This document shows, one piece after another, positions 1-39,064 of a stretch of DNA of 39,064 nt. Made by a program: the position numbers and the translations under genes. The stretch comes from a virus. Its lineage: Duplodnaviria; Caudoviricetes. The stretch is from the IMG/VR virus record IMGVR_UViG_3300023174_000339, positions 1 to 39,064 of that record, one strand, 5' to 3'. Within the stretch, counting starts at the first letter, position 1; every line of letters starts with the position of its first letter. A model generated the notes under the pieces. That model saw nothing but the letters and a program-made list of their open reading frames with translations, did not search any database and was not told the origin of the DNA.

Positions 1-54
1 CATTTTGTTTCCTTCCAATCGGTTATTGCCTTCCAATTTTACAACAAAAAATAG

Positions 55-107
55 GTGCTAGGGGGCGGGAGCAGGGAAGGCGACTGCTACAACCGACCCC
101 CTAGCAC
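55..107 (-). terminator. Long composite hairpin after the tail tube gene (terminator or regulatory RNA)
   Basis: GTGCTAGGGGG(55-65)/CCCCCTAGCAC(97-107), inner stem AGCAG/CTGCT, and a T-rich run on the - strand. Conserved in the second copy. Confidence 0.7.
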
Positions 108-121
108 ATTTACTCTGTTAC

Positions 122-1108
122 TTAGATATAAGTACCAGAAGCCTTTGCATTTTGTAGTACCCACTTAATAGGAGCAAAACCGCCAGAAGCACCAGCATCT
201 GTGGTATTACCAAGTCCGTCAAGTTCAATTTTGATTTTTACAAAATCATCTCCACGGTCATAAGCGGCGGCAGTATAAGCACCCTTTGTAATGGTTGCTT
301 GAATTTGAATTGCGGCAGCACCTGTTCCATAAGCCCAGTTAAGAACAATGGCAGGTTGTGTGTTTGTTAGGTAGCGTGTTAATTCTGTATCCGCTTCCAT
401 AATAAACTCAATATCACCTGTAACATCAAGAGCACCAACAAATACGCTAAATGGATTTTGTGTTTGTGAGATACCGTAAATTGGCGTAACTGGTCGCTTC
501 AATGAGATTGAACCATTCATACCATTTGTGATTGATGATCCACCGATAGATACAGTTCCTTGCCAAACTGGTGTTGGCAATACTGTGCTAAATGATGGTG
601 ATGGTGCAGTAGTTGTTGCTGAAATAAAACCTGTGGACTTTGCATCAAATTCCAATATTCCATCTGAACTAAACTTTAGTGTTACATCGTGGAATTGTTG
701 TGCGGCGTATGTACGCGTACCAGCAACATAAAAGTCTGTAAGTGTGTAAGAAAGTGGTTGAACATCAGCAGATGCCGCAAGACTGTTCCTTAGCGAAATT
801 GTGTGTGTGAATGGAGCAGATGCGCCAACTGTTGCGCAAGCACCCATAATACCTGTTAATGCGTAACCGATACCATCAGCAAATACCGCACCACCTAAAT
901 CAAATGTAGAGCGTGTGCGACCCGGAATATAGTTGTAATTTTCAACCATAGCACCGCGAAGCCCTTTATCAAATAATGGGTCAATTACATCTACTGGCTT
1001 TACAGTATCTTTATTGACAAGAAGGTAATCTGTCGGTGCAACGGCAGTACCTTTTGTTACTTCTTTTGCAATTCCTATATAGGAACGGACGGAATTTTGG
1101 ACTGCCAT
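122..1108 (-). CDS. Major tail (tube) protein, allele 1
   Basis: 328 aa, beta-rich Thr/Gly/Ala protein starting SYIGIAKEVTKGT. Sits between head-tail genes and the tail assembly chaperone. Confidence 0.8.
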   Translation of the reverse strand: MAVQNSVRSYIGIAKEVTKGTAVAPTDYLLVNKDTVKPVDVIDPLFDKGLRGAMVENYNYIPGRTRSTFDLGGAVFADGIGYALTGIMGACATVGASAPFTHTISLRNSLAASADVQPLSYTLTDFYVAGTRTYAAQQFHDVTLKFSSDGILEFDAKSTGFISATTTAPSPSFSTVLPTPVWQGTVSIGGSSITNGMNGSISLKRPVTPIYGISQTQNPFSVFVGALDVTGDIEFIMEADTELTRYLTNTQPAIVLNWAYGTGAAAIQIQATITKGAYTAAAYDRGDDFVKIKIELDGLGNTTDAGASGGFAPIKWVLQNAKASGTYI

Positions 1109-1285
1109 TTACTCACTCTCCTGCGGTGTTGTGAAGGTTGGTTTGGTTGAAATCTTAGCACTAACACTAATAACTTCATACGCATTAAAATCATCTGGGG
1201 CATCAAATTCTGCATTTGGCGCCACAACAATCCCAAGCGAAGGGAACACACGCTCGTCTGTTCCCGTGTATTTATACTTTGCCAT
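1109..1285 (-). CDS. Small hypothetical virion-region protein (58 aa, MAKYKYTGTDERVFPSLG...)
   Basis: Not in the ORF track. Translated by hand; has an AAGGAG RBS and fills the gap between flanking genes exactly. Confidence 0.75.
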   Translation of the reverse strand: MAKYKYTGTDERVFPSLGIVVAPNAEFDAPDDFNAYEVISVSAKISTKPTFTTPQESE

Positions 1286-3016: not shown

Positions 3017-4723
3017 CTAAGCCCTGACAATTCCTGATACTGCGCCGTTCCATGCTGGAGCAGTGCAGAAGAAGTTACCACGGAAGTATGTGCTGAACTC
3101 ATATGCGAACTGAGTTACTGGCCATTGAATGCCCATGTAATCCTGAACCATGAAGTTAGCCCAAACATCTGTTACCTCTGTGTCTGGAATTGGAAGTGTG
3201 TATGAAAGGACTGGTGATACACCCTGTGGAAGCCATGGGTGAACAGTTAGAGGAACCATCTTGCCAGTAACTTCATTGTTAAGAGCGCCAATTACTGCAC
3301 CACCAACATAATCTCCCACTTCATTCTGTGAAAGGTTAATACGGTAGTTAGCAGTTGAGCCGTTCTTGATTGCATCTGAGAGTTGCTTACGGTCTGCGCC
3401 GTTTAGGAAAATCTCATCTGGGTCAGCCTTAACTGCATCGTATAGACCAGAGAATACATTTTGGTATTCAACGCCTGGGTTTGATGTTGAGAAGGTTGAA
3501 TTTACTGCGTTGTTGAAACCTGAGTTTGCACCAAGAACAGTAGGAAGAATTCCGTCATATCCTGTTGCATATGCAGATGTATCTGCTGCTGCGCGAGTTG
3601 CGGCTGCACCAGTTGTTGTAAATGCGGCATTGTTACCTGTAACGATAGCGCCAGCACCTTGAATTGTGAATGTACCAGTTCCACGAAGTGTTCCCTGATA
3701 CTTAAGGTTTGCGTTACCTGTTGCAGTTCCAACATAGATGTTGTAACCAAGTGCGCCAGCAACTGCAGTTCCTACTGTAATTGTAAGAACATCTCCTGCT
3801 GCTACTGTTTCTGAAACTTCAGTTCCAAGAATTGACTCACCAAAACCTGAACTTGAAATACCAGCATCAGCAGTCACATTGATGTAGTAAGTATTAGCCG
3901 CTAGTGCAGTCTGTGAACCAGATGCGACTGGTGAAGCCTTTGTAAATGTTGGTGCTGAAAGTGCGCCAGAGTATCCTGATGCAGTTCCGCGAGCCATAAG
4001 CATCATGCGCTCTTCCATCAACATTGTTGCGTAAAGTGTTGATGTTGAAGATAGTTGGCGCAAGTCCTGATATCCCATACCTGAGAAATTAGCATCAAAT
4101 GATACTGAGTCAGATAGTGAGTATGAGTTGTATGGCAACACTAGGTCATCTGCTGAGTAAGAAATCTTTGGACCGCGCTCGTAGTTGATTGAACCGAAAG
4201 CAGTTGTTGTGCTTTCTGTAATTCCCGGCCATGTGTTACCGACTCCGCCTGTACCTGTACCTGTGTAACCGTTAATACGCTTTACACGGTGTGATGTACC
4301 GACACCCTTCTTACGCGCAATCTTGTTACGCAATGGTGTTGGGCGTGGTGTAAGCAACTTAGAAGGTGCTTCAAGGTCAAAAGCCGCAAATGATGTGGTA
4401 AGTGGGCTTGTGAGTGTGATGTCTTTCTGAATATCCTGCATTGCCAAACGCTGAGAAGCAAGTGCGTTATTTAGCGCGCCTACTGCATCTGGTGAAAGTG
4501 ACTTGTTTGTTGCTAGGGCTTCAAGTGTTGATACTGGGTCGCCAGATGCTGATGCAAATGTTGATGTACCTGACTTGATTGCCATAATTGCTGATGGGTC
4601 TGAAATAGATTGTCCAACAGACTTGTTAAAAGCGTCTGTGTATTCGTCCATGCGTACTGCTGCATCTTTTGCAGAAGTAGCATCTCCGAACAACTCAGTT
4701 GCTTTAACTGGTGCGAGAGCCAT
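3017..4723 (-). CDS. Major capsid protein (with beta-rich insertion)
   Basis: 568 aa directly after the protease/scaffold. FDLEAPSKLLTPRPTPLRNKIARKKGVG-type N-terminal region and CTAPAWNGAVSGI C-terminus. Followed by a strong hairpin. Confidence 0.8.
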   Translation of the reverse strand: MALAPVKATELFGDATSAKDAAVRMDEYTDAFNKSVGQSISDPSAIMAIKSGTSTFASASGDPVSTLEALATNKSLSPDAVGALNNALASQRLAMQDIQKDITLTSPLTTSFAAFDLEAPSKLLTPRPTPLRNKIARKKGVGTSHRVKRINGYTGTGTGGVGNTWPGITESTTTAFGSINYERGPKISYSADDLVLPYNSYSLSDSVSFDANFSGMGYQDLRQLSSTSTLYATMLMEERMMLMARGTASGYSGALSAPTFTKASPVASGSQTALAANTYYINVTADAGISSSGFGESILGTEVSETVAAGDVLTITVGTAVAGALGYNIYVGTATGNANLKYQGTLRGTGTFTIQGAGAIVTGNNAAFTTTGAAATRAAADTSAYATGYDGILPTVLGANSGFNNAVNSTFSTSNPGVEYQNVFSGLYDAVKADPDEIFLNGADRKQLSDAIKNGSTANYRINLSQNEVGDYVGGAVIGALNNEVTGKMVPLTVHPWLPQGVSPVLSYTLPIPDTEVTDVWANFMVQDYMGIQWPVTQFAYEFSTYFRGNFFCTAPAWNGAVSGIVRA

Positions 4724-20521: not shown

Positions 20522-20713
20522 TTATGCCTTCTCTCTTGCTAGTCGGACACGCAATACTGTTGGATTTAGATTTGCCGCCGAGAGTGCGGTGGTTACTTCC
20601 ATTTCCGCTATATCGCGTATCTCTTTTGATAGTGCAGAACCCTTCAATTTTTCAACTGAGGATTTTGGTGTCGGTATTTCTACTGCCACCAGTATTTTTA
20701 CTGTGTTTGCCAT
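20522..20713 (-). CDS. Hypothetical protein (63 aa)
   Basis: AGGAAGG RBS; abuts bet. Confidence 0.7.
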   Translation of the reverse strand: MANTVKILVAVEIPTPKSSVEKLKGSALSKEIRDIAEMEVTTALSAANLNPTVLRVRLAREKA

Positions 20714-20766: not shown

Positions 20767-20788
20767 CGGATTAAAGTTTTGCCTACTT
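20767..20788 (-). promoter_or_regulatory. 22-bp repeated motif, copy 1
   Basis: + strand CGGATTAAAGTTTTGCCTACTT; consensus CGGATTARANNNNTGCCTACTT. Confidence 0.8.
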
Positions 20789-20998
20789 CCATTCAATAAT
20801 GCAACCACTTTCATTGCAGTACCAAAAGAAATGAATTGCAAATTGATAAAGAAGAAACCCACCTAAGATTGCAATTGCAAATAGGACACGCCTACCGCGT
20901 TTGTTCAATTTAAGTGGGTTTGAATTAAGAGTATTTACAGTCAATACCGATATTGCGGTGATTAAAGAAAATGAGATGCCTAATACGGTGTTTATCAT
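20783..20998 (-). CDS. Small two-TM membrane protein
   Basis: Two hydrophobic stretches; GGAGG RBS. Confidence 0.7.
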   Translation of the reverse strand: MINTVLGISFSLITAISVLTVNTLNSNPLKLNKRGRRVLFAIAILGGFLLYQFAIHFFWYCNESGCIIEWK

Positions 20999-21060: not shown

Positions 21061-21189
21061 GCAAGTCGCGTATCTATTTATTGTTATGCCTAATAGTAAA
21101 AACACGCCTTGCAGACGATTAGGCGGTTTGGCACTTGTTGGGGTTACTTAACTATTACCCGACTTGTACCAAACCGCCTAGCGACTTGC
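21061..21189 (-). other. Multi-stem structured intergenic element after DUF932
   Basis: Outer GCAAGTCGC/GCGACTTGC; inner TAGGCGGTTTGG/CCAAACCGCCTA. Confidence 0.6.
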
Positions 21190-21195
21190 TATGAC

Positions 21196-22206
21196 TTATA
21201 GAAGATTCAAGATTTTGTTCTTGAAGTTATCTCCTGCGCCAGTAACAATACGGATAGCCCTTGCAGTATCTGGGTTTTTATCGCGTACTGGTTTAGCCCA
21301 GTCTGAGTACTCAGTAAAGGCGTTATATGCCGCCCACTTTGTACCGCTAATGTTGGCTTGTGTTGGTGCTTTCCACAAACCGTTGAGTGTTCCGCGTGCA
21401 GTTTCCGCCATAGTTACTGCGCGTGGACTTTCAGGGTCATCAATTGGAAATACATTTTCAACTAATGAATAAAATTCCTTATCAGACATTTTCTGACTAA
21501 GAAGATTATTTGCTAACTCTTCAAATGACTCTGTGTATTTCCAAGTCAATTTAAGTGTTTCGCGTGCAACTTGAATTTTGCTATCTACATTCGGAGTATG
21601 TCGTAATGTGAAAGTAGATTTAGCATCGTGAATTGCGGCAGTTAAAGTGTTCTGGCAAACCACGCGGATAGGGGTAACTAGAACATTGAACGATGAAGTG
21701 CCATCGTGTGTGTTCCACGCCATCAAATATAAATCAATAGCATCTACGCCACCAATTTGCAATCCTTCTGGCATTTTCATAGTCATAAAGACTTTTTTAC
21801 CGTTATCAATACTGCCAGCAGTTTCAAATACGGCGCCACTTTCATCGGCGACTGCATTTAGAAACGAAAATGCTTGCAGATTTTGTACTGGTGTGTAACG
21901 GTTACCCACAACGCCAAGTGCTTGCGCCTTTTTTGTCTTTGGGTGATAGCGATAAGTCATAAACTTATCTGCATATGTGATTTCTTCCATTGAGCCTTGT
22001 TCCATAGCGGTTTTACCAAACATTGGAACCATTGTTGATACTGGGTCATCAGATTTGATAACTTGCCAGTCCAGTTGTGCAGTTTTTAGCGCATCTTCTG
22101 CGGTTAATGCGCCTTCTGTAACGGTGCCTAGTTTGTGCCAAGCGACCTCGCGTGCGGAAAAGAAGGCGGAAGTTCCATCTTCAAATTCCTCTAGTCTGTG
22201 TGCCAT
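21196..22206 (-). CDS. DUF932-family protein
   Basis: AWHKLG, FETAGSI, HDGTSS, TPIRVVCQNTL, RHT and GTKWAAYNAFTEY. Confidence 0.9.
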   Translation of the reverse strand: MAHRLEEFEDGTSAFFSAREVAWHKLGTVTEGALTAEDALKTAQLDWQVIKSDDPVSTMVPMFGKTAMEQGSMEEITYADKFMTYRYHPKTKKAQALGVVGNRYTPVQNLQAFSFLNAVADESGAVFETAGSIDNGKKVFMTMKMPEGLQIGGVDAIDLYLMAWNTHDGTSSFNVLVTPIRVVCQNTLTAAIHDAKSTFTLRHTPNVDSKIQVARETLKLTWKYTESFEELANNLLSQKMSDKEFYSLVENVFPIDDPESPRAVTMAETARGTLNGLWKAPTQANISGTKWAAYNAFTEYSDWAKPVRDKNPDTARAIRIVTGAGDNFKNKILNLL

Positions 22207-22529
22207 TATGCGTTTATCCCTTCGGTTGTGTTTGTTGTTGGTTTGTTTAACTCGGCGGCAACGGCTAATGCAATTGCATAACTATCACCGACGAATGCTG
22301 GAAACGGTACGGAAATAAAACTTGTACCGTGTTTCATTGAGTCTGCATACCACTTAATCCACTTTGACCAGTTAATAACTAAATACTGATCTGCGGTGCA
22401 ATATCCTTTGGATACGCAAGCATCGTGATAAAAACTGGTTGGGTTAATTGTTAGCCAAGTATCTGACTCAGTTATTTCCGTTTCTGTTTTAACGGTAACT
22501 GTTATTGTTTTTGTATTAGTCATTATCAT
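22206..22529 (-). CDS. Hypothetical protein
   Basis: 107 aa ORF coupled to DUF932. Confidence 0.65.
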   Translation of the reverse strand: MIMTNTKTITVTVKTETEITESDTWLTINPTSFYHDACVSKGYCTADQYLVINWSKWIKWYADSMKHGTSFISVPFPAFVGDSYAIALAVAAELNKPTTNTTEGINA

Positions 22530-22950
22530 TTACCTCAAAATCTTCAATTTCAAATGACTCAGATGTTTGTTCAATATTGTCATCAGTTATATTTGATGAG
22601 ATTTTAATATCAAAATCACCTTCGCTAAAGTCTGACTCATCATATGTAAGTGGAACATTGAATTCATATTCACAAACTGCGGCAAATGTAACCTTGACGG
22701 ATTTAGTAAGTTCCATATCAAGATCAGCGGCTAACTTAATTAAATCCTTGGTATCAATATCTTTTGCTATAATATGTTCTTTAAGAAATTCCTCAACTTT
22801 GTCGTATAACTCAACATATTGATTTTTAAGATTTTCTTTCGTTGATGCAAGTGTTTGAATACGGTCAATATATGTATCAACCGTATCTTTTAATCGTTTA
22901 TTTTCTTCTTGTAGTGTTTCTATTGTTACTGGTGTTGTTTCTTCAGTCAT
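22516..22950 (-). CDS. Acidic hypothetical protein with N-terminal coiled coil
   Basis: 144 aa, AAGGGA RBS; first gene after hammerhead 1. Confidence 0.75.
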   Translation of the reverse strand: MTEETTPVTIETLQEENKRLKDTVDTYIDRIQTLASTKENLKNQYVELYDKVEEFLKEHIIAKDIDTKDLIKLAADLDMELTKSVKVTFAAVCEYEFNVPLTYDESDFSEGDFDIKISSNITDDNIEQTSESFEIEDFEVNDND

Positions 22951-22977
22951 TTTTTATCCCTTTGCTATTTGCTGATG

Positions 22978-23064
22978 AGGCTCATCAGTAGTGCCATTTA
23001 GCACTAGACACGGTAAAATGCGTGCGGATTAAAAATCTGCCTACTTTTTTACCGTGTTTCGCCT
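22978..23064 (-). ncRNA. Type II hammerhead ribozyme (HH1)
   Basis: - strand: AGGC-GAAA-CACGGTAAAA[28-nt loop]TTTTACCGTG-TC^-TAGTGC[TAAATG]GCACTA-CTGATGA-GCCT. Complete core and all three stems; predicted cut between 23007 and 23006. Confidence 0.9.
23025..23046 (-). promoter_or_regulatory. 22-bp repeated motif, copy 2 (in the HH1 stem III loop)
   Basis: + strand CGGATTAAAAATCTGCCTACTT. Confidence 0.8.
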
Positions 23065-23292
23065 TCAAATATGCGATTTGTGTATGGCGTATTGCCCTAA
23101 TCTATTAGCGGTAATAAGTAACTGGTCTGCTACTTGCATTGCTAATGAATAGTTATCTGTCCGAATTGCGTTTTCAAATACTTCACCAGCCAATTCAATA
23201 AATGCAAAGTCTGCATCTATATTATTAACGGGTTGCAATTCCGGGCATTGAGGACATTCTGTGTTCCGTATCTTAATTATTTTCGCAGTCAT
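23065..23292 (-). CDS. Hypothetical protein (75 aa)
   Basis: AAGGAG RBS; its stop codon abuts HH1. Confidence 0.7.
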   Translation of the reverse strand: MTAKIIKIRNTECPQCPELQPVNNIDADFAFIELAGEVFENAIRTDNYSLAMQVADQLLITANRLGQYAIHKSHI

Positions 23293-23364
23293 AATTTGTC
23301 TCCTTATCGTTGATTGAAATGTGATAACAAATTCTGTTACCAGTTATTGTGCATATTGAACAGG

Positions 23365-23571
23365 TCATAGGACTGTTACCCATCTGCGTGCCGCGTTGCA
23401 AAGATTGTCGTAATCACCAGACATACTGTCCATTGTGTATTGACTAATCTCTTCCTTAGTTGCGCCAGCCCTTTTGAGTGCTTTTGAAACTGCACCCATA
23501 ATCTCAAACGCATTTTCAGTAAGTGTTAGATGTACTACTGCTTGTGGATATTTTGGTGTTATTGTGTTCAT
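23365..23571 (-). CDS. Phage hypothetical protein (68 aa)
   Basis: NAFEIMGAVSKALKRAG...SMSGDYDNL; GGGAG RBS. Confidence 0.8.
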   Translation of the reverse strand: MNTITPKYPQAVVHLTLTENAFEIMGAVSKALKRAGATKEEISQYTMDSMSGDYDNLCNAARRWVTVL

Positions 23572-23894
23572 TTGTTTCTCCCTTTTGTATAGTCCTTTGT
23601 GAACATTTCTGACTTTCTTGTTGCGGTTTTTGAACAGTAGATATCAACGCCCGCTTTTACGCCCATTTGCACAATAGGAATTAACTCATCTTCGGTAAAA
23701 TAACCGAGCGCAATTAACTCTTGATGCGCAATTTGCTTGTAGTGGTCGCCGTACCCATATTGAAACGGAAGTACGGAAACGATTTCTCCGTCAACCCATA
23801 TTCGTGCAGAGAAATATGAATTGCCGTATGTGGTATCTGTCCACTCTCTTGCTTCAATAAAGACAGACCGTGCAACTAACTGTGTATTAACCAT
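23568..23894 (-). CDS. Phage hypothetical protein (108 aa)
   Basis: WTDTTYGNSYFS...PFQYGYGDHY; GGAG RBS. Confidence 0.8.
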   Translation of the reverse strand: MVNTQLVARSVFIEAREWTDTTYGNSYFSARIWVDGEIVSVLPFQYGYGDHYKQIAHQELIALGYFTEDELIPIVQMGVKAGVDIYCSKTATRKSEMFTKDYTKGRNK

Positions 23895-24318
23895 TGTTAT
23901 CTCCCTTTAGTAGTTGTGCCATAGTTACCAAAGCGCCGTAATACGCCGCCTTGATTTCATCTGATGTAACTTCATATTTTGATTGTTCGTTGTATCGCTC
24001 TATTCTTTTTAACCACTTAGTAATTGGCATTGTAAGAACATTTGTAGAAAGACCGATACGCTTTTCAATATCACCAAATGAAATTGGGTAACTTTCACTT
24101 TCATTTGTATCGTTATTGAATTTAGAAACAAGCGGTGTAAATAACTCCACCACTTTTGTTCGTGCGTAGAATTGAACGGCATTTTTTGCGGTAATACTGC
24201 CCATATCTACATGCATTGTTGTCCAGATAAGTGCGTTTGTAATTGCCCACTCACCGTTTTCTTCTTCTTGTAACGCTTCCATATTCTTGCAGTTTGTGAT
24301 ATCCCAATCAAGTGACAT
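23887..24318 (-). CDS. Hypothetical protein (143 aa)
   Basis: MSLDWD...RIGLSTNV; AAGGGAG RBS. Confidence 0.75.
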   Translation of the reverse strand: MSLDWDITNCKNMEALQEEENGEWAITNALIWTTMHVDMGSITAKNAVQFYARTKVVELFTPLVSKFNNDTNESESYPISFGDIEKRIGLSTNVLTMPITKWLKRIERYNEQSKYEVTSDEIKAAYYGALVTMAQLLKGDNNG

Positions 24319-24370
24319 TTTATTCTCCCTTTGTTAGTTGTTTGTGTTATTTGTTGATGTTGCATACTTG

Positions 24371-24392
24371 CGGATTAGATTTTTGCCTACTT
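24371..24392 (-). promoter_or_regulatory. 22-bp repeated motif, copy 3
   Basis: + strand CGGATTAGATTTTTGCCTACTT, flanked by TTGCA/TGCAA. Confidence 0.8.
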
Positions 24393-24413
24393 TTGCAATT
24401 GTTTTTGCTGATC

Positions 24414-24836
24414 TTAACAATCTGCGCAATCACAACTTGCGTTATTTGTATTTTGTAGTTCTTTTTGAAATGTACTCCAAGTATCTTGAAGTCCTTTCTT
24501 TGACTTGCTTAGATTTTCATTAGTCGTTACTTGACCAAAGAAAACATCTGCAATATCTTTTGCTGATTTGAAGTATTCTGCGCCGATAAAATCACCGAAC
24601 CCATATCCTTCATCATCGTTGTAACTCCAACCACCATCTGCTTCACCGAAGTTGATAGTGTAAATAAAATCTGGGTGGTCAATTTGTATATATCCGCCCC
24701 AGACTATTTCTGCTTTTGTTACTTTCCATGTTTCTCCAAGTTGAACAGTTGCAGAACCAAATGTTGGTAAATCTGTTTCTGTTCGTGGGTCATATTCAGT
24801 TATTGCTTTTGCTATTTCTTCTAGTGTTATTGCCAT
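24414..24836 (-). CDS. Hypothetical protein ending in CDCADC
   Basis: Start MAITL after an AAGGGA RBS. Confidence 0.75.
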   Translation of the reverse strand: MAITLEEIAKAITEYDPRTETDLPTFGSATVQLGETWKVTKAEIVWGGYIQIDHPDFIYTINFGEADGGWSYNDDEGYGFGDFIGAEYFKSAKDIADVFFGQVTTNENLSKSKKGLQDTWSTFQKELQNTNNASCDCADC

Positions 24837-24872
24837 TTGTTTATCCCTTTGTTTGTAGTTAATTTGCACTTA

Positions 24873-24894
24873 CGGATTAAATTTTTGCCTACTT
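24873..24894 (-). promoter_or_regulatory. 22-bp repeated motif, copy 4
   Basis: + strand CGGATTAAATTTTTGCCTACTT, flanked by TTGCA/TGCAA. Confidence 0.8.
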
Positions 24895-24895
24895 T

Positions 24896-25072
24896 TTATG
24901 CAATTTTTTTGCCTGTATATGTGGTCATATACTTGCTTTTTGTAACTGTGTATTCAATTACTCGGACTTTGTGTTTGTGCTTACCGAGTAAATCTTTTGC
25001 TTCTTTTGCGGTTTTCTTATCTGCGGTTTTCCAACCACAGTTGCAGAAAGCCTTATATACTTTTTTGTCCAT
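24896..25072 (-). CDS. Small basic protein (58 aa) with CxC...HxH
   Basis: Hand-translated MDKKVYKAFCNCGW...KHKH; AAGGGAG RBS; first ORF after HH2. Confidence 0.75.
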   Translation of the reverse strand: MDKKVYKAFCNCGWKTADKKTAKEAKDLLGKHKHKVRVIEYTVTKSKYMTTYTGKKIA

Positions 25073-25095
25073 TTTGTATCTCCCTTTTTATGTGA

Positions 25096-25170
25096 TAGGC
25101 GTACCATCATCAGTAACCGTTGCCTAAGCGGTTAGACGGCGCTTACTTTTAGTGCAAGCGCCGTTTCGGA
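25096..25170 (-). ncRNA. Type II hammerhead ribozyme (HH2) with loop I pseudoknot
   Basis: - strand: CC-GAAA-CGGCGCTTGC[ACTAAAA]GTAAGCGCCG-TC^-TAACCG[CTTAGGCAA]CGGTTA-CTGATGA-T-GG, then GCCTA, which is complementary to loop I TAGGC. Predicted cut between 25135 and 25134. Stem II is minimal. Confidence 0.82.
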
Positions 25171-25740
25171 AATTGTTTGTCCCTAGTTATTTGAATTGTG
25201 CAAATACCAAGATCATTGAGTTGAACTTGATACCGCTATCGGTGTGCCAAACCGACCTCTGAGATAAATTCTCCATGCCGACTTCCGCCTTATTTGGAGT
25301 GCGCTGATTAGCAACTACTGTGGGTGCCTTTGTCTGCCACTTTCTAGGACTTACCCGTTGCGTGCGTTCCCTTATTTGCGTGTCATAACTTTTTGCAATG
25401 TGTTATATCTACTAATTGCGTACCTTGTAGAATACCGAAAGTCTGCCTAATTAGTGTTAGTGTGATTAACAGCGACTAACAGATTGTGCTGGCTATAATT
25501 CGGACTTGCAATTTGTTACTGGATACTCTGAACGGTGCAAATTAAATAACGAAATTTGCGTTCCGTTTATATCTCCTATGTATCAATATCTACTTATTTT
25601 CCTCGCCAGAGCGGTGCGGTGCGTAAGCGTTAATCCGATGCCTTCACCGAGGTTTTTGTAGATATTTAGTTGTAAATGTTCTAGTAGGTAAATTACTTGG
25701 GTTGTATTCGTACGAATGGACGACCCGTTAATAAACTACC
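25135..25740 (-). ncRNA. Candidate large (~600 nt) structured non-coding RNA
   Basis: No credible ORF. Many helices (AATATCTAC/GTAGATATT, CCTCG/CGAGG, AACGG..GCAAATT/AATTTGC..CCGTT, GTTAGT/ACTAAC, ACTAATT/AATTAGT, TCGGT/ACCGA). Bounded by a candidate promoter and HH2. Confidence 0.55.
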
Positions 25741-25745
25741 CTTCA

Positions 25746-25754
25746 ATGGTATCA
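25746..25754 (-). promoter_or_regulatory. Candidate extended -10 (TGaTACCAT) for the leftward early transcript
   Basis: Fits TGnTAnnnT just upstream of the first hairpin of the structured region. Confidence 0.45.
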
Positions 25755-25890
25755 CCCCACGCCGAGATGGGTTTCAGAGGGTGTTTTTAACCTCGTTACA
25801 GCCCCGTATAGACACGCATATGTACAAGTGGTACATCTATATGCAATTGCTATTCAAATGTCCGCAAATAGCCTTACACGCCTTGTGGAA

Positions 25891-25913
25891 AAGTAGGCAG
25901 TTTTTTAATGCCG
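25891..25913 (+). promoter_or_regulatory. Repeated motif, copy 5 (inverted, 1-nt insertion)
   Basis: AAGTAGGCAGTTTTTTAATGCCG, oriented with the rightward ORF. Confidence 0.65.
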
Positions 25914-25968
25914 ACACATTATTTGTAACACTTGCATACTCAATCACAAGTGGGCATACACTTCGGTT

Positions 25969-26199
25969 ATGGCACAAACTGGTAAATCAAGTTATTCGCA
26001 AATCACAATCCGTTGTGGCGGTTTAGTTGTTGAATTAGGAACTGAAACCGAATACCCAGACATGGTTGATGATTTAACTAACCGTGCGCTAAATGTATTC
26101 AAAGAAGCGTGCCAAACAGTAAAAGACAATGGCGTGGATATATCAAATATGCGCCTAATCACCGCAGATTATGGTGATGATTATGATGATGAAGAGTAA
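25969..26199 (+). CDS. Acidic hypothetical protein (76 aa), probably leaderless
   Basis: No RBS; TACACT (-10) ends 6 nt before the ATG; lies in a gap free of - strand genes. Confidence 0.75.
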   Translation: MAQTGKSSYSQITIRCGGLVVELGTETEYPDMVDDLTNRALNVFKEACQTVKDNGVDISNMRLITADYGDDYDDEE

Positions 26200-26303
26200 T
26201 GTGCCGAATTTGCGGAGATTGCGCTAAGGAACATACACGCACTATTGACGATGCCGTTGATGAAGCGGAAACTAATCTAACCAAATTTTGTATTCCGCAG
26301 TAA
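26199..26303 (+). CDS. Microprotein (34 aa) MCRICGDCAKEH...
   Basis: TAATG coupling to the upstream gene; CxxCxxCxxxH. Confidence 0.5.
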   Translation: MCRICGDCAKEHTRTIDDAVDEAETNLTKFCIPQ

Positions 26304-27306
26304 CTCTGCCTTTAACTGGGTCAATAAAATGCAGGCGTTGGCTTGGAATAGCGCTAGCAGCTAATAAATCGCGTGCATACCGATTATCACTCTCAGTTGA
26401 ACCTGTTTGGTAAATACTTCCTAATCCGTTTGCCATTGGCCAACAAGCGTGTGTGTGATAATGCCCCACATATACATCTCTAAATTCCCAAGGATACGCA
26501 CCGCTACGCCAACGGTTTGCATGTTGAACAATGGCAGTAGGTGATGCAAACCCATTTCTGCCTACTTCATCACCGTGTATTAACAATGCGCGGTAATTAC
26601 CGATTTCAACTCTTTGTACATCATCTGGACAGTCCTGCCAAGTTAAACGCTTCTCATCTGCAAGTAACTGGCGCGCTAATTCATAACACATACGGTCAAT
26701 ATTATCGTTGCGTGGTACATCTGCGCGTTTGTTACCGATACGCCCGTGATTACCCCACTCTGCAACCACTAATACATTTTCGTACATTGTTAATGCTTTT
26801 CTAATAACATCGGTAATAAGTCTTGATACCGTTACATATTGTTCAAATAAAGTGGCATCAACTTCGTGTAACTGTGCTGGATAGTTAAATAAACCTTCAA
26901 CCATATCGCCGCCAAATAACACAACTACATCTTTTACAGGGTGGTCTGCTCTTTGTATTTCTGTAATTTTGTAGGCTTTATCTACAAAGTCCATAACGCG
27001 TTTGCGCATTACTTCTGAATTATATGTAGTGGTTTTTTTACTGCCTTGCCAGTCAGTCATATGCCATAGTGCAACTTCACTAGATTTTTTGCGTTTATCT
27101 GGTACTGGTATCTGTACAGATTTAATTGCACCCATAGCAAGAGTTGCATCTTTGGTTGCTTGTATTGTTACTTCAACTAATTCTTCTGTACGGTTCTTTG
27201 CATCTTTGAGTTGTTTTTGAGTGCGTATTAACGCCTTGCGCAATTCCGTTATATCACTTGATTCAATATCTTCTGGTAACTCTTCAAATCGGTCTTTAAG
27301 ACTCAC
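26272..27306 (-). CDS. Calcineurin-like metallophosphoesterase with N-terminal coiled coil
   Basis: TDWQ, GGDMVEG, GNHGR, IHGD and VGHYH. Confidence 0.88.
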   Translation of the reverse strand: MSLKDRFEELPEDIESSDITELRKALIRTQKQLKDAKNRTEELVEVTIQATKDATLAMGAIKSVQIPVPDKRKKSSEVALWHMTDWQGSKKTTTYNSEVMRKRVMDFVDKAYKITEIQRADHPVKDVVVLFGGDMVEGLFNYPAQLHEVDATLFEQYVTVSRLITDVIRKALTMYENVLVVAEWGNHGRIGNKRADVPRNDNIDRMCYELARQLLADEKRLTWQDCPDDVQRVEIGNYRALLIHGDEVGRNGFASPTAIVQHANRWRSGAYPWEFRDVYVGHYHTHACWPMANGLGSIYQTGSTESDNRYARDLLAASAIPSQRLHFIDPVKGRVTAEYKIWLD

Positions 27307-37568: not shown

Positions 37569-37900
37569 CTTTCGGCATCCTTTTCATTTGCTTCTGTATT
37601 AGCCAATGCAGGGAATAGTACCTTTTGCGCATCTTTTGTTTCATCAACAAGAAAATCGTAATCAGCCATTTCAAGTTCATCTAGCGACTCAATTTTGATT
37701 GACGGAATAATTAAATCTAGCGACCAGTCCTCAATAAGTACTGCAAGCAACCCATCTGTTAATGAAAGCGCCTGCATAATACCTTCATCTGCTTTGCCTG
37801 CGTTTGCATAAATCTTTTTGCGGTCTTTTACACGCAACGCTGATGGGTCGCGCAAAGTAACTGTTGCGCCACTAGGTAATGTAATTTTCTTTTGTGTCAT
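37544..37900 (-). CDS. Tail assembly chaperone (G-like)
   Basis: Follows the tail tube gene; start MTQKK after GGAAGG; ends ESPFGKSSD. Confidence 0.8.
   Translation of the reverse strand: MTQKKITLPSGATVTLRDPSALRVKDRKKIYANAGKADEGIMQALSLTDGLLAVLIEDWSLDLIIPSIKIESLDELEMADYDFLVDETKDAQKVLFPALANTEANEKDAESPFGKSSD
37562..37568 (-). promoter_or_regulatory. Programmed -1 frameshift slippery heptamer C-CCT-TTC
   Basis: In-frame X-XXY-YYZ near the chaperone C-terminus; adjacent C-GGA-AAG is an alternative site. Confidence 0.7.
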
Positions 37901-37948
37901 TTTGTTTCCTTCCGATAGTTGTGTGCCTTCCAATTTTACATCAAATAG

Positions 37949-38001
37949 GTGCTAGGGGGCGGGAACGGGGAAGGCGACCGCTACAACCGACCCCCTAGCA
38001 C
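37949..38001 (-). terminator. Second copy of the post-tail-tube hairpin
   Basis: Same outer stem as 55-107; inner-stem changes preserve pairing. Confidence 0.7.
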
Positions 38002-38015
38002 ATTTATTCTGTTAC

Positions 38016-39002
38016 TTAGATATAAGTACCAGAAGCCTTTGCATTTTGTAGTACCCACTTAATAGGAGCAAAACCGCCAGAAGCACCTGCATCTGTGGTA
38101 TTTCCTAGTCCGTTAATTGAGACGGTAATTTTTACAAAATCATCTCCACGGTCATAAGCGGCGGCAGTATAAGCACCCTTTGTAAGAGTTGCTTGAATTT
38201 GAAGTGCGGCTGCACCTGTTCCATATTGCCAGTTAAGAACAATCGCAGGTTGTGTGTTTGTTAGGTAGCGTGTTAATTCTGTATCCGCTTCCATAATAAA
38301 CTCAATATCACCTGTAACATCAAGAGCACCAACAAATACGCTAAATGGGTCTTGTGTCTGTGAAATGCCGTAAATTGGTGTAACTGGACGCTTCATTGAA
38401 ATTGAACCCGTCATACCATTTGTGATTGAAGTTCCACCGATAGATACAGTTCCTTGCCAGACTGGTGTTGGCAATACTGTGCTAAATGTTGGTGTTGGTG
38501 CAGTTGTTGTAGCAGACTTAAAACCTGTTGCTTTAGCATCAAATTCCAACATACCATCTGCGCTAAACTTTAGCGTTACATCGTGAAATTGTTGCGCGGC
38601 ATATGTGCGCACACCAGCAACATAAAAGTCTGTAAGTGTGTAAGAAAGTGGTTGAACATCAGTAGATGCCGCAAGACTATTCTTTAATGAGATTGTGTGT
38701 GTAAATGGAGCAGATGCACCAGTTGTAGCACAAGCACCCATAATACCTGTAAGTGCATAACCAATACCATCAGCAAATACCGCACCACCCATATCAAATG
38801 TAGAGCGTGTTCTGCCCGGAATATAGTTGTAATTTTCAACCATAGCACCGCGAAGTCCTTGATCGTACAATGGGTCAATTACATCTACTGGCTTTACAGT
38901 ATCTTTATTGACGAGAAGGTAATCTGTCGGTGCAACCGCAGTACCTTTTGTTACTTCTTTTGCAATTCCTATATAGGAACGGACGGAATTTTGGACTGCC
39001 AT
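38016..39002 (-). CDS. Major tail (tube) protein, allele 2
   Basis: 328 aa; about 25 amino acid differences from 122-1108 by manual count. Confidence 0.8.
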   Translation of the reverse strand: MAVQNSVRSYIGIAKEVTKGTAVAPTDYLLVNKDTVKPVDVIDPLYDQGLRGAMVENYNYIPGRTRSTFDMGGAVFADGIGYALTGIMGACATTGASAPFTHTISLKNSLAASTDVQPLSYTLTDFYVAGVRTYAAQQFHDVTLKFSADGMLEFDAKATGFKSATTTAPTPTFSTVLPTPVWQGTVSIGGTSITNGMTGSISMKRPVTPIYGISQTQDPFSVFVGALDVTGDIEFIMEADTELTRYLTNTQPAIVLNWQYGTGAAALQIQATLTKGAYTAAAYDRGDDFVKITVSINGLGNTTDAGASGGFAPIKWVLQNAKASGTYI

Positions 39003-39064
39003 TTACTCACTCTCCTGCGGTGTTGTGAAGGTTGGTTTGGTTGAAATCTTAGCACTAACACTAA

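What the first reader, a model, noticed from the sequence alone, without database searches (positions are those of the whole stretch)
23007..25134. Two same-strand hammerheads bracket a six-gene early cassette: possible self-excising, circularisable mRNA
Seen: HH2 (cut 25135/25134) and HH1 (cut 23007/23006) flank 2128 nt containing six small ORFs and three motif copies. Established: hammerhead cleavage leaves 5'-OH and 2',3'-cyclic phosphate ends, which RtcB-type ligases join, and paired hammerheads generate circles in viroids and retrozymes. Inference: the early transcript self-processes into a ~600-nt ncRNA, a 2.1-kb cassette mRNA and a downstream mRNA. A ligated junction would have a poorly matched stem II (AGGC vs TGGT), so a circle should resist re-cleavage. 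This is the strongest candidate for an undescribed system in the window.
Basis: partly seen in the sequence, partly recalled or inferred. Interest (0 to 1): 0.88.

Follow-up and report, generated by a model that had tools for sequence, protein, structure and literature searches.

The report
Hammerhead-cut early transcript, self-locking ribozyme
Two hammerhead-type RNA motifs sit just before start codons in an uncultured phage and likely cut its early transcript into linear pieces, a known phage habit with no sign of RNA circles, but the first cut would free an uncatalogued, covarying RNA of about 600 bases and the second motif carries a tail predicted to fold back over its own catalytic core.

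Summary
Two minus-strand type II hammerheads lie at the stated cut sites, 2128 nt apart, with six small ORFs and three motif copies between them (0 in 100 shuffles). Of 31 related phage loci, 29 carry two or three, with covarying stems. 'Undescribed circularisable cassette' is not supported. Perreault 2011 described clustered phage hammerheads around variable genes and found no circles. Here spacing (418-2128 nt), gene content and number vary, while cut-to-start-codon distance is nearly fixed (52-71 nt, 53 of 53). The ribozymes therefore look like independent 5'-leader modules. The circle junction keeps only one stem II pair in 17 of 23 cases. No RNA data could be examined, so circles are untested. 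Two features go beyond the papers found. HH2 ends a ~606-nt promoter-led RNA with 36 of 74 pairs changed on both sides and no Rfam match. HH1 is followed by the complement of its own core (20 of 25 relatives; 0 of 26 HH2-type), co-varying at N7. The scan noted this arrangement, such a tail and a similar released RNA before, on other DNA.

The parts
25746..25754 (-). Extended -10 promoter-like site (TG-N-TANNNT); predicted start about 25740
   Evidence: Found 572-673 nt before the first cut in the window and in 18 relatives; absent at that place in the L019-L026, L028 and L031 groups; L001 and L027 lack the upstream DNA
25135..25740 (-). ~606-nt non-coding structured RNA, the predicted 5' product of HH2, ending in HH2's 5' half; long-range helix 25550-25545 with 25191-25186 closes a multibranched core
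   Evidence: 16-sequence alignment: 36 of 74 predicted pairs changed on both sides, 0 of 500 shuffles as high, slid controls 6-9. No Rfam family. Single-sequence z only -1.77
25096..25169 (-). HH2, 'class A' type II hammerhead: stem III loop ACUAAAA, extra U after A9, loop I (25126-25122) to 3' tail (25100-25096) pseudoknot; cut 25135/25134, 62 nt before the next ATG
   Evidence: 5-bp pseudoknot here, 3-5 bp in 17 of 17 distinct first-position ribozymes
24896..25072 (-). Cassette ORF 1, 58 aa, unknown
   Evidence: (weak PHROG hits only)
24414..24827 (-). Cassette ORF 2, 137 aa from the ATG with a ribosome site, unknown
23887..24318 (-). Cassette ORF 3, 143 aa, unknown; family c5, common in relatives
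23568..23894 (-). Cassette ORF 4, 108 aa, phrog_6246 (unknown function)
23365..23571 (-). Cassette ORF 5, 68 aa, phrog_1933 (unknown function)
23065..23292 (-). Cassette ORF 6, 75 aa, unknown; its stop codon abuts HH1's stem II
24873..24896 (-). Oriented intergenic motif (AAGTAGGCA-N5/6-TAATCC), copy 1
24371..24394 (-). Motif copy 2
23025..23048 (-). Motif copy 3, forming the loop of HH1 stem III; replaced by a short loop in several relatives
22978..23064 (-). HH1, 'class B' type II hammerhead, 4-bp stem II AGGC/GCCU, no pseudoknot; cut 23007/23006, 56 nt before the next ATG
   Evidence: stem I: 6 of 7 pairs changed on both sides
22972..22978 (-). Anti-core tail UCAUCAG, exact complement of HH1's CUGAUGA (7-bp hairpin, 3-nt loop), overlapping stem II by one base
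21196..22950 (-). Conserved downstream operon: 144-aa protein, 107-aa protein, DUF932 protein (336 aa)
21105..21180 (-). Inverted repeat and terminator-like site after DUF932, likely end of the transcript
   Evidence: consensus scan only; count at chance level
25889..25912 (+). Motif copy on the opposite strand, 57 nt before a conserved plus-strand ORF
20767..20790 (-). Motif copy outside the cassette, 54 nt before ORF 20522-20713

Best explanation
Two conserved type II hammerhead motifs each sit 56-62 bases before a start codon and likely act as independent self-cutting leader modules that would split the phage's early transcript into linear pieces, not a circle. Shown by sequence and comparison: the folds, their conservation and covariation, the fixed distance to the next gene, the upstream promoter-like site, the covarying ~606-nt RNA and HH1's anti-core tail. 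Inferred steps: (1) host polymerase starts near 25740; (2) HH2, with its pseudoknot, cuts during transcription, giving the structured RNA a defined 3' end and the first small gene a new 5' end; (3) HH1 does the same for the conserved 144-aa/DUF932 operon; (4) because both are type II, each downstream product begins with a 5'-OH and a hairpin from its first base, then an open A-rich leader and ribosome site, which would shield it from 5'-end-dependent nucleases and make its translation independent of whichever genes lie upstream (a natural counterpart of the RiboJ insulator); (5) six bases after HH1 is complete, the tail can pair with the catalytic core, which would lock the product against re-joining and probably lowers the share of transcripts cut. 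The 2128-nt piece is then just the middle fragment.
For: Cut-to-ATG 52-71 nt in 53 of 53 distinct ribozymes with a ribosome site in reach; L016 and L018 class A had none in the search span and lie 92 nt from the ATG. Distance 48-58 nt in 10 of 10 from five more distant records. Spacing 418-2128 nt, 1-6 genes of changing identity, three ribozymes in 4 of 31 loci. In L221 and L222 the last ribozyme sits directly before DUF932. Stem II strands differ between ribozymes of one genome: cognate 2-5 bp, circle junction 1 bp in 17 of 23, skip junction 1 bp in 20 of 23. Anti-core hairpin of 6 bp or more in 20 of 25 non-class-A and 0 of 26 class A ribozymes from sets not picked for it; N7 partner U-A 17, C-G 3, U-G 1, C-A 0. 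With the tail, p(stem II) for HH1 is 0.046 against 0.99 without, ddG 2.5 kcal/mol. Precedent: all three ribozymes active in ~2-kb prophage transcripts, and the halovirus HF1/HF2 transcript 5' end mapped within 3 nt of a hammerhead cut (PMC3088659). An extra U after A9 raised the cleavage rate in a viroid hammerhead (PMC3705267 passage).
Against: No cleavage, transcript end or stability was measured. Folding energies are 2D only and omit tertiary contacts, so how far the tail blocks HH1 is uncertain. A 5'-OH end leads to decay, not protection, after glmS cleavage (PMC6765202 section 13). The ribosome site is only slightly more open after cutting (class A 0.52 to 0.58, class B 0.63 to 0.74), so there is no strong translation switch. 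The oriented motif is unexplained and could mark internal starts. The N7 covariation is one column and may rest on few independent events. The host is unknown.
Confidence: 0.65

Rival explanations
1. One reading: the middle piece is ligated, by a host RtcB-type enzyme or by the chimeric ribozyme itself, into a stable circular mRNA that is the point of the pair.
For: The end chemistry is right (PMC6765202 passages). The junction would keep HH2's pseudoknot and one stem II pair, and a one-pair type II hammerhead is reported active, so self-ligation is conceivable. It reaches 2-4 bp in 6 of 23 pairings.
Against: Circles and splicing were looked for and not detected in the same kind of arrangement (PMC3088659). 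The two ribozymes are not repeats, and no matched junction is kept (1 bp in 17 of 23). Size, content and number vary. No RNA ligase among 56 ORFs scanned. The window junction's 2D fold is not a hammerhead. HH1 is predicted to be damped by its tail.
Confidence: 0.08
2. HH1 is mainly a regulated or mostly-off switch: the tail keeps it inactive until a pause or a phage factor, perhaps binding the motif grafted into stem III, lets it cut, so most transcripts read through.
For: The anti-core fold is favoured in 28 of 28 distinct cases, p 0.65-1.00, ddG 0.4-5.5. The motif occupies the stem III loop in 11 of 26 distinct motif copies.
Against: Many relatives have a short stem III loop with no motif yet keep the tail. 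No regulator was identified. Tertiary energy is not counted. This rival overlaps step 5 of the best explanation.
Confidence: 0.15
3. Cutting destabilises the downstream RNA (glmS-like decay from the 5'-OH end) and times the shut-off of early genes.
For: glmS precedent; the genes are in the early region.
Against: The products start with a 6-8-bp hairpin at the first base and a kept leader length, which suits protection better (reasoning from recalled RNase J and RNase E end preferences; no call).
Confidence: 0.08
4. The oriented motif is an internal promoter or regulator site, so the cassette genes are mostly made from their own starts and the ribozymes only trim read-through RNA.
For: Copies lie 37-57 nt before start codons in the window, on both strands.
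Against: No sigma-70-type site at these copies. A start inside HH1's stem III would bypass a ribozyme that stays conserved. The motif was not found in many relatives that keep both ribozymes.
Confidence: 0.07

Closest known systems
Clustered hammerhead ribozymes flanking genes in prophages (Clostridium scindens, Azorhizobium caulinodans, Agrobacterium tumefaciens; Perreault et al. 2011, PMC3088659; passages, section 8 and part 1 of section 11 read)
   Same: Several same-strand hammerheads around single genes or short, non-constant gene blocks; type II topology; loop I to 3' tail pseudoknot; short stem II; proposed polycistron processing.
   Different: Here the layout is followed across a phage family with covariation; the cut-to-start distance is fixed; the second class lacks the pseudoknot and has an anti-core tail; the first ribozyme ends a large structured RNA. 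None of these three appears in the parts read.
Halovirus HF1/HF2 HHphage hammerhead (same paper)
   Same: Ribozyme just before the first early ORF; the mapped transcript 5' end matches the cut.
   Different: Single, variant-core, archaeal virus; no pair.
Retrozymes and hammerhead viroids (PMC4918200, search listing only; PMC6765202 passages; PMC7761336 passages)
   Same: Two hammerheads release a piece with 5'-OH and cyclic phosphate ends.
   Different: Those cut repeated units so the junction rebuilds the same ribozyme (retrozyme detail recalled). Here the two ribozymes differ, stem II does not match and the middle is a variable protein-coding block.
GOLLD and ROOL large phage-associated RNAs (PMC5737381 passage; PMC12286853 search listing only)
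   Same: Large, multibranched RNA in phage DNA, similar size range (sizes recalled).
   Different: No Rfam match to either; no tRNA in the window; 3' end set by a hammerhead.
RiboJ-type ribozyme insulators of synthetic biology (PMC12857756, one passage; design details recalled)
   Same: A self-cleaving ribozyme gives a gene a standard 5' leader regardless of upstream sequence.
   Different: Natural, type II, and in HH1 the second hairpin is made from the catalytic core itself.

Membership tests
Type II hammerhead ribozyme | Core CUGANGA, GAAA, NUH with A15.1-U16.1 | tested here: met
   Both have CUGAUGA, GAAA and GUC; HH2 has one extra U after A9, a tolerated variant
Type II hammerhead ribozyme | Stems I and III closed by loops, stem II open, stems covary | tested here: met
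   stem III 9 of 11 pairs and class B stem I 6 of 7 pairs changed on both sides
Type II hammerhead ribozyme | Loop I to 3' tail pseudoknot (common, not obligatory) | tested here: inconclusive
   HH2 yes, 5 bp; HH1 no, 3 bp and not conserved, 1-4 bp in 22 class B. A U in loop I and an A before stem II recur and may form the alternative contact (inferred)
Type II hammerhead ribozyme | Rfam RF02276 gathering score | tested here: not met
   No hit for the window; relatives 31.9 and 27.1 bits against 37. Long stem III loops and the extra U probably cost score; filed by structure, not by Rfam
Type II hammerhead ribozyme | Self-cleavage at the predicted site | not testable with these tools
   Needs in vitro transcription or RNA ends
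Clustered phage hammerheads (Perreault 2011) | Two or more same-strand hammerheads flanking non-constant genes in phage DNA | tested here: met
   29 of 31 loci with 2-3, none on the other strand; content varies; phage structural genes
Retrozyme or viroid-like circular RNA | Flanking ribozymes are copies, so the junction rebuilds a matched ribozyme | tested here: not met
   Different stems; junction stem II 1 bp in 17 of 23
Retrozyme or viroid-like circular RNA | Defined unit of conserved size and sequence | tested here: not met
   418-2128 nt, changing genes
Retrozyme or viroid-like circular RNA | Covalently closed RNA detected | not testable with these tools
   No RNA run was available to lay on the locus
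GOLLD / ROOL / OLE and other Rfam large RNAs | Match to the family covariance model | tested here: not met
   also none upstream in L025

The most novel reading that the evidence does not exclude
This phage family makes a new class of large ornate RNA (~600 nt, long-range covarying helices, no Rfam family) whose 3' end is matured by a built-in pseudoknotted hammerhead, and pairs it with a one-shot hammerhead that disarms itself by folding its own tail over the catalytic core six bases after synthesis, so that transcription speed sets what share of the downstream operon gets a processed 5' end.
Probability: 0.35. Interest if true: 0.75.

Novelty: new variant of a known kind. Interest (0 to 1): 0.5.

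Why it matters
The purpose of self-cleaving ribozymes in phages is still called largely elusive (PMC6765202 section 13). This family gives a natural experiment: the genes change while cut-to-start distance, the pseudoknot class and the anti-core class are kept, which points to 5'-leader making and can be tested with 80-base constructs. A selected tail that masks the catalytic core would be a simple natural timing or lock device for a ribozyme. The released ~600-nt RNA is a candidate for a new large-RNA class. A natural circular phage mRNA would matter more, but nothing here points to it.

Tried and rejected
RNA evidence: no RNA holder was listed for 22000-26300, so no reads were laid; this is no evidence either way. 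Junction search: a pattern for the HH1-type 5' half joined to the HH2-type 3' half gave 0 records in metagenome contigs; it covers long stem III forms only. All 15 records with the HH2 3' half had the genomic 5' half upstream (L213 has only 20 nt upstream, and L215 has the window's length and spacing and is probably its own record). These are probably DNA assemblies, so they only show no joined form in them. Antisense ribozymes: none in the window or in 31 loci; one type III call in L005 was an overlap artefact. Ribosome-site masking by the ribozyme, a lead from earlier notes: no consistent effect. The anti-core palindrome as a DNA operator: disfavoured, because its spacer varies (16, 17 and 19 nt forms) and U-G occurs. 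The motif as an RNA hairpin loop: stems are strong only inside ribozymes; 8 of 15 outside copies reach 6 bp, several of them G-U rich. Cultured models: regions around the DUF932 homologues of phages Appa, Sonali and Jace have no type II hammerhead, and the upstream RNA has no match among 50,697 phage records. Host: DUF932 hits are mostly actinophages at about 40% identity, terminase hits are mixed; Actinobacteria is a guess. Of 52 class A pattern hits, 14 gave no hammerhead (13 chance, L179 cut off) and were dropped; of 120 anti-core pattern hits, 99 were not hammerheads. The core profile of the upstream RNA found L025 and L026 (which are in it) but not L028 or the five distant records L221-L225, so it is not shown for the whole family. 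Literature searches listed no paper on this family, on an anti-core tail in phage hammerheads or on this RNA. Most subscription papers are outside the library, and supplements were not read (Dataset S1 of PMC3088659 and the motif files of PMC5737381 could hold these sequences).
Full report
Setting. The window is a near-complete tailed phage of about 38 kb with almost all genes on the minus strand: terminase, portal, tape measure, endolysin, RecT-like and exonuclease genes. It is a single virus record rated complete. The finding lies between a metallophosphoesterase-like gene (26272-27306) and a DUF932 gene (21196-22206), ahead of the recombination and replication genes, so in the early region by position (inferred). 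The host is unknown.

Observation. A structural scan finds two type II hammerheads at exactly the stated cuts and none in 100 shuffles. The six ORFs, the 2128 nt and the three motif copies are there; two more copies lie outside, one on the plus strand. Rfam misses the window's ribozymes but scores two in a relative below threshold.

Conservation. Of 31 loci fetched through the DUF932 gene, 25 have two ribozymes, 4 have three, 1 has one and 1 has none; the last two are cut short upstream. None lies on the other strand. Several loci are close relatives, so counts below use distinct sequences. Stems change in compensated fashion. There are two classes. The first-position class (HH2) has an ACUAAAA-type stem III loop and a 3-5-bp loop I to tail pseudoknot in 17 of 17; the later class (HH1) has a 4-bp stem II and no conserved pseudoknot. 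HH2's extra U after A9 is present in 10 of 24 class A, and such a U is reported to speed a viroid hammerhead (PMC3705267 passage).

What is fixed and what is not. The interval is 418-2128 nt with one to six genes of changing identity. The window's is the longest seen. The distance from cut to next start codon is 52-71 nt in 53 of 53 distinct ribozymes (two class A cases with a 92-nt leader fell outside that count), and 48-58 nt in 10 of 10 from five more distant records, where the last ribozyme can sit straight before DUF932. Selection therefore appears to act on each ribozyme's relation to the gene after it, not on a bracketed unit.

The circle. PMC3088659 (passages) already describes clustered hammerheads flanking non-constant gene blocks in prophages, shows activity in three cases, names circles and splicing as options and did not detect them. 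Here the stem II strands of one genome's ribozymes mostly do not match each other: the circle junction has 1 bp in 17 of 23 pairings and 2-4 bp in 6. No RNA ligase was seen among 56 ORFs. No RNA data were available, so circles remain untested; I give them 0.08.

The anti-core tail. HH1's CUGAUGA is followed after three bases by UCAUCAG. A hairpin of 6 bp or more is possible in 20 of 25 non-class-A and 0 of 26 class A ribozymes in sets not chosen for it (23 of 26 class B against none of 25 class A with another de-duplication). The variable core base and its partner change together: U-A 17, C-G 3, U-G 1 and no C-A; a pattern that allowed all four combinations returned U-A 12 and C-G 6. In 2D energies the tail fold beats the active fold in 28 of 28 cases; for HH1 stem II falls from 0.99 to 0.046. 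Tertiary energy is not counted, so the tail may act mainly after cutting, as a lock, or before it, as a throttle. Natural hammerheads are thought to be selected for cutting during transcription (PMC1636495 passages), which fits a short window before the tail emerges. The covariation is one column and the number of independent events is not known.

The upstream RNA. An extended -10 site lies 572-673 nt before the first cut in the window and 18 relatives, giving a start near 25740. The 606 nt to the cut have no long minus-strand ORF. In 16 aligned sequences 36 of 74 predicted pairs change on both sides, 9 of them in HH2's stem III; no shuffle of 500 reaches this and slid controls give 6-9. The structure was derived from the same alignment, which favours it, and an independent stricter count kept three helices. 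All 38 class A ribozymes from a separate pattern search had a profile hit, 36 of them reaching well upstream of the ribozyme (the set overlaps the first 31 loci). A shorter, diverged core is visible in L019-L026 and L031. There is no Rfam family and no match in cultured phages. Its function is not known; by analogy with GOLLD and ROOL I would guess a scaffold or decoy RNA made in excess early in infection (guess, low weight).

The motif. It is oriented with transcription on both strands, 37-57 nt before start codons when outside a ribozyme in the window, and is grafted into HH1's stem III loop in some lineages only. It is not a sigma-70-type site. A regulator binding site is the likeliest reading; it stays unexplained.

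Verdict. The ribozymes are real and the arrangement is a known kind. The best reading is linear processing into a released structured RNA and mRNAs with standard, hairpin-capped 5' ends (0.65). The anti-core tail and the upstream RNA were not found in print in searches, with the limits that most subscription papers and all supplements went unseen. Earlier notes of this scan report the same arrangement, such a tail and a similar released RNA on other DNA; a sequence look-up found no look-alike of this RNA. I set the score on my own tests: interest 0.5, new variant of a known kind.

Noticed in passing
window 25969-26199 (+): A 76-aa acidic ORF on the plus strand, against the genome's direction, conserved in the aligned relatives with no Pfam hit; preceded by TTGCAT-19 nt-TACACT ending 6 nt before its ATG, suggesting a leaderless mRNA, with a motif copy further upstream.
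   Followed up: partly
window 1-1170 and 37895-39064: The two ends align without gaps at about 89% identity (124 mismatches): a diverged overlap or strain mosaic, not a clean terminal repeat; the 328-aa gene appears twice.
   Followed up: partly
window 25183-25168 (-): GGGA just upstream can pair with HH2's stem II 5' strand (UUCC), a possible competing hairpin for class A; the columns hardly vary, so there is no covariation support (helix 16), and L025 and L026 lack it.
   Followed up: partly
L014 6174-6227, L016 after 5426: In this clade the repeat motif has a different sequence (AATATGCGCA-N6-YAAGC) but takes the same places, including HH1's stem III loop.
   Followed up: no
L002 6127, L005 2788: Third, middle ribozymes with GAAAU stem III starts, AUA cut triplets and their own stem II, also with motif-like loops and anti-core tails; L006, L008 and L010-L013 class B use AUC.
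   Followed up: partly
window 23791-23773 (-): A terminator-like hairpin inside cassette ORF 4; the count of such sites is at chance level.
   Followed up: no
L025 about 3800-4190: The upstream RNA carries large insertions in this lineage while keeping the core blocks, as large ornate RNAs with variable domains do.
   Followed up: no
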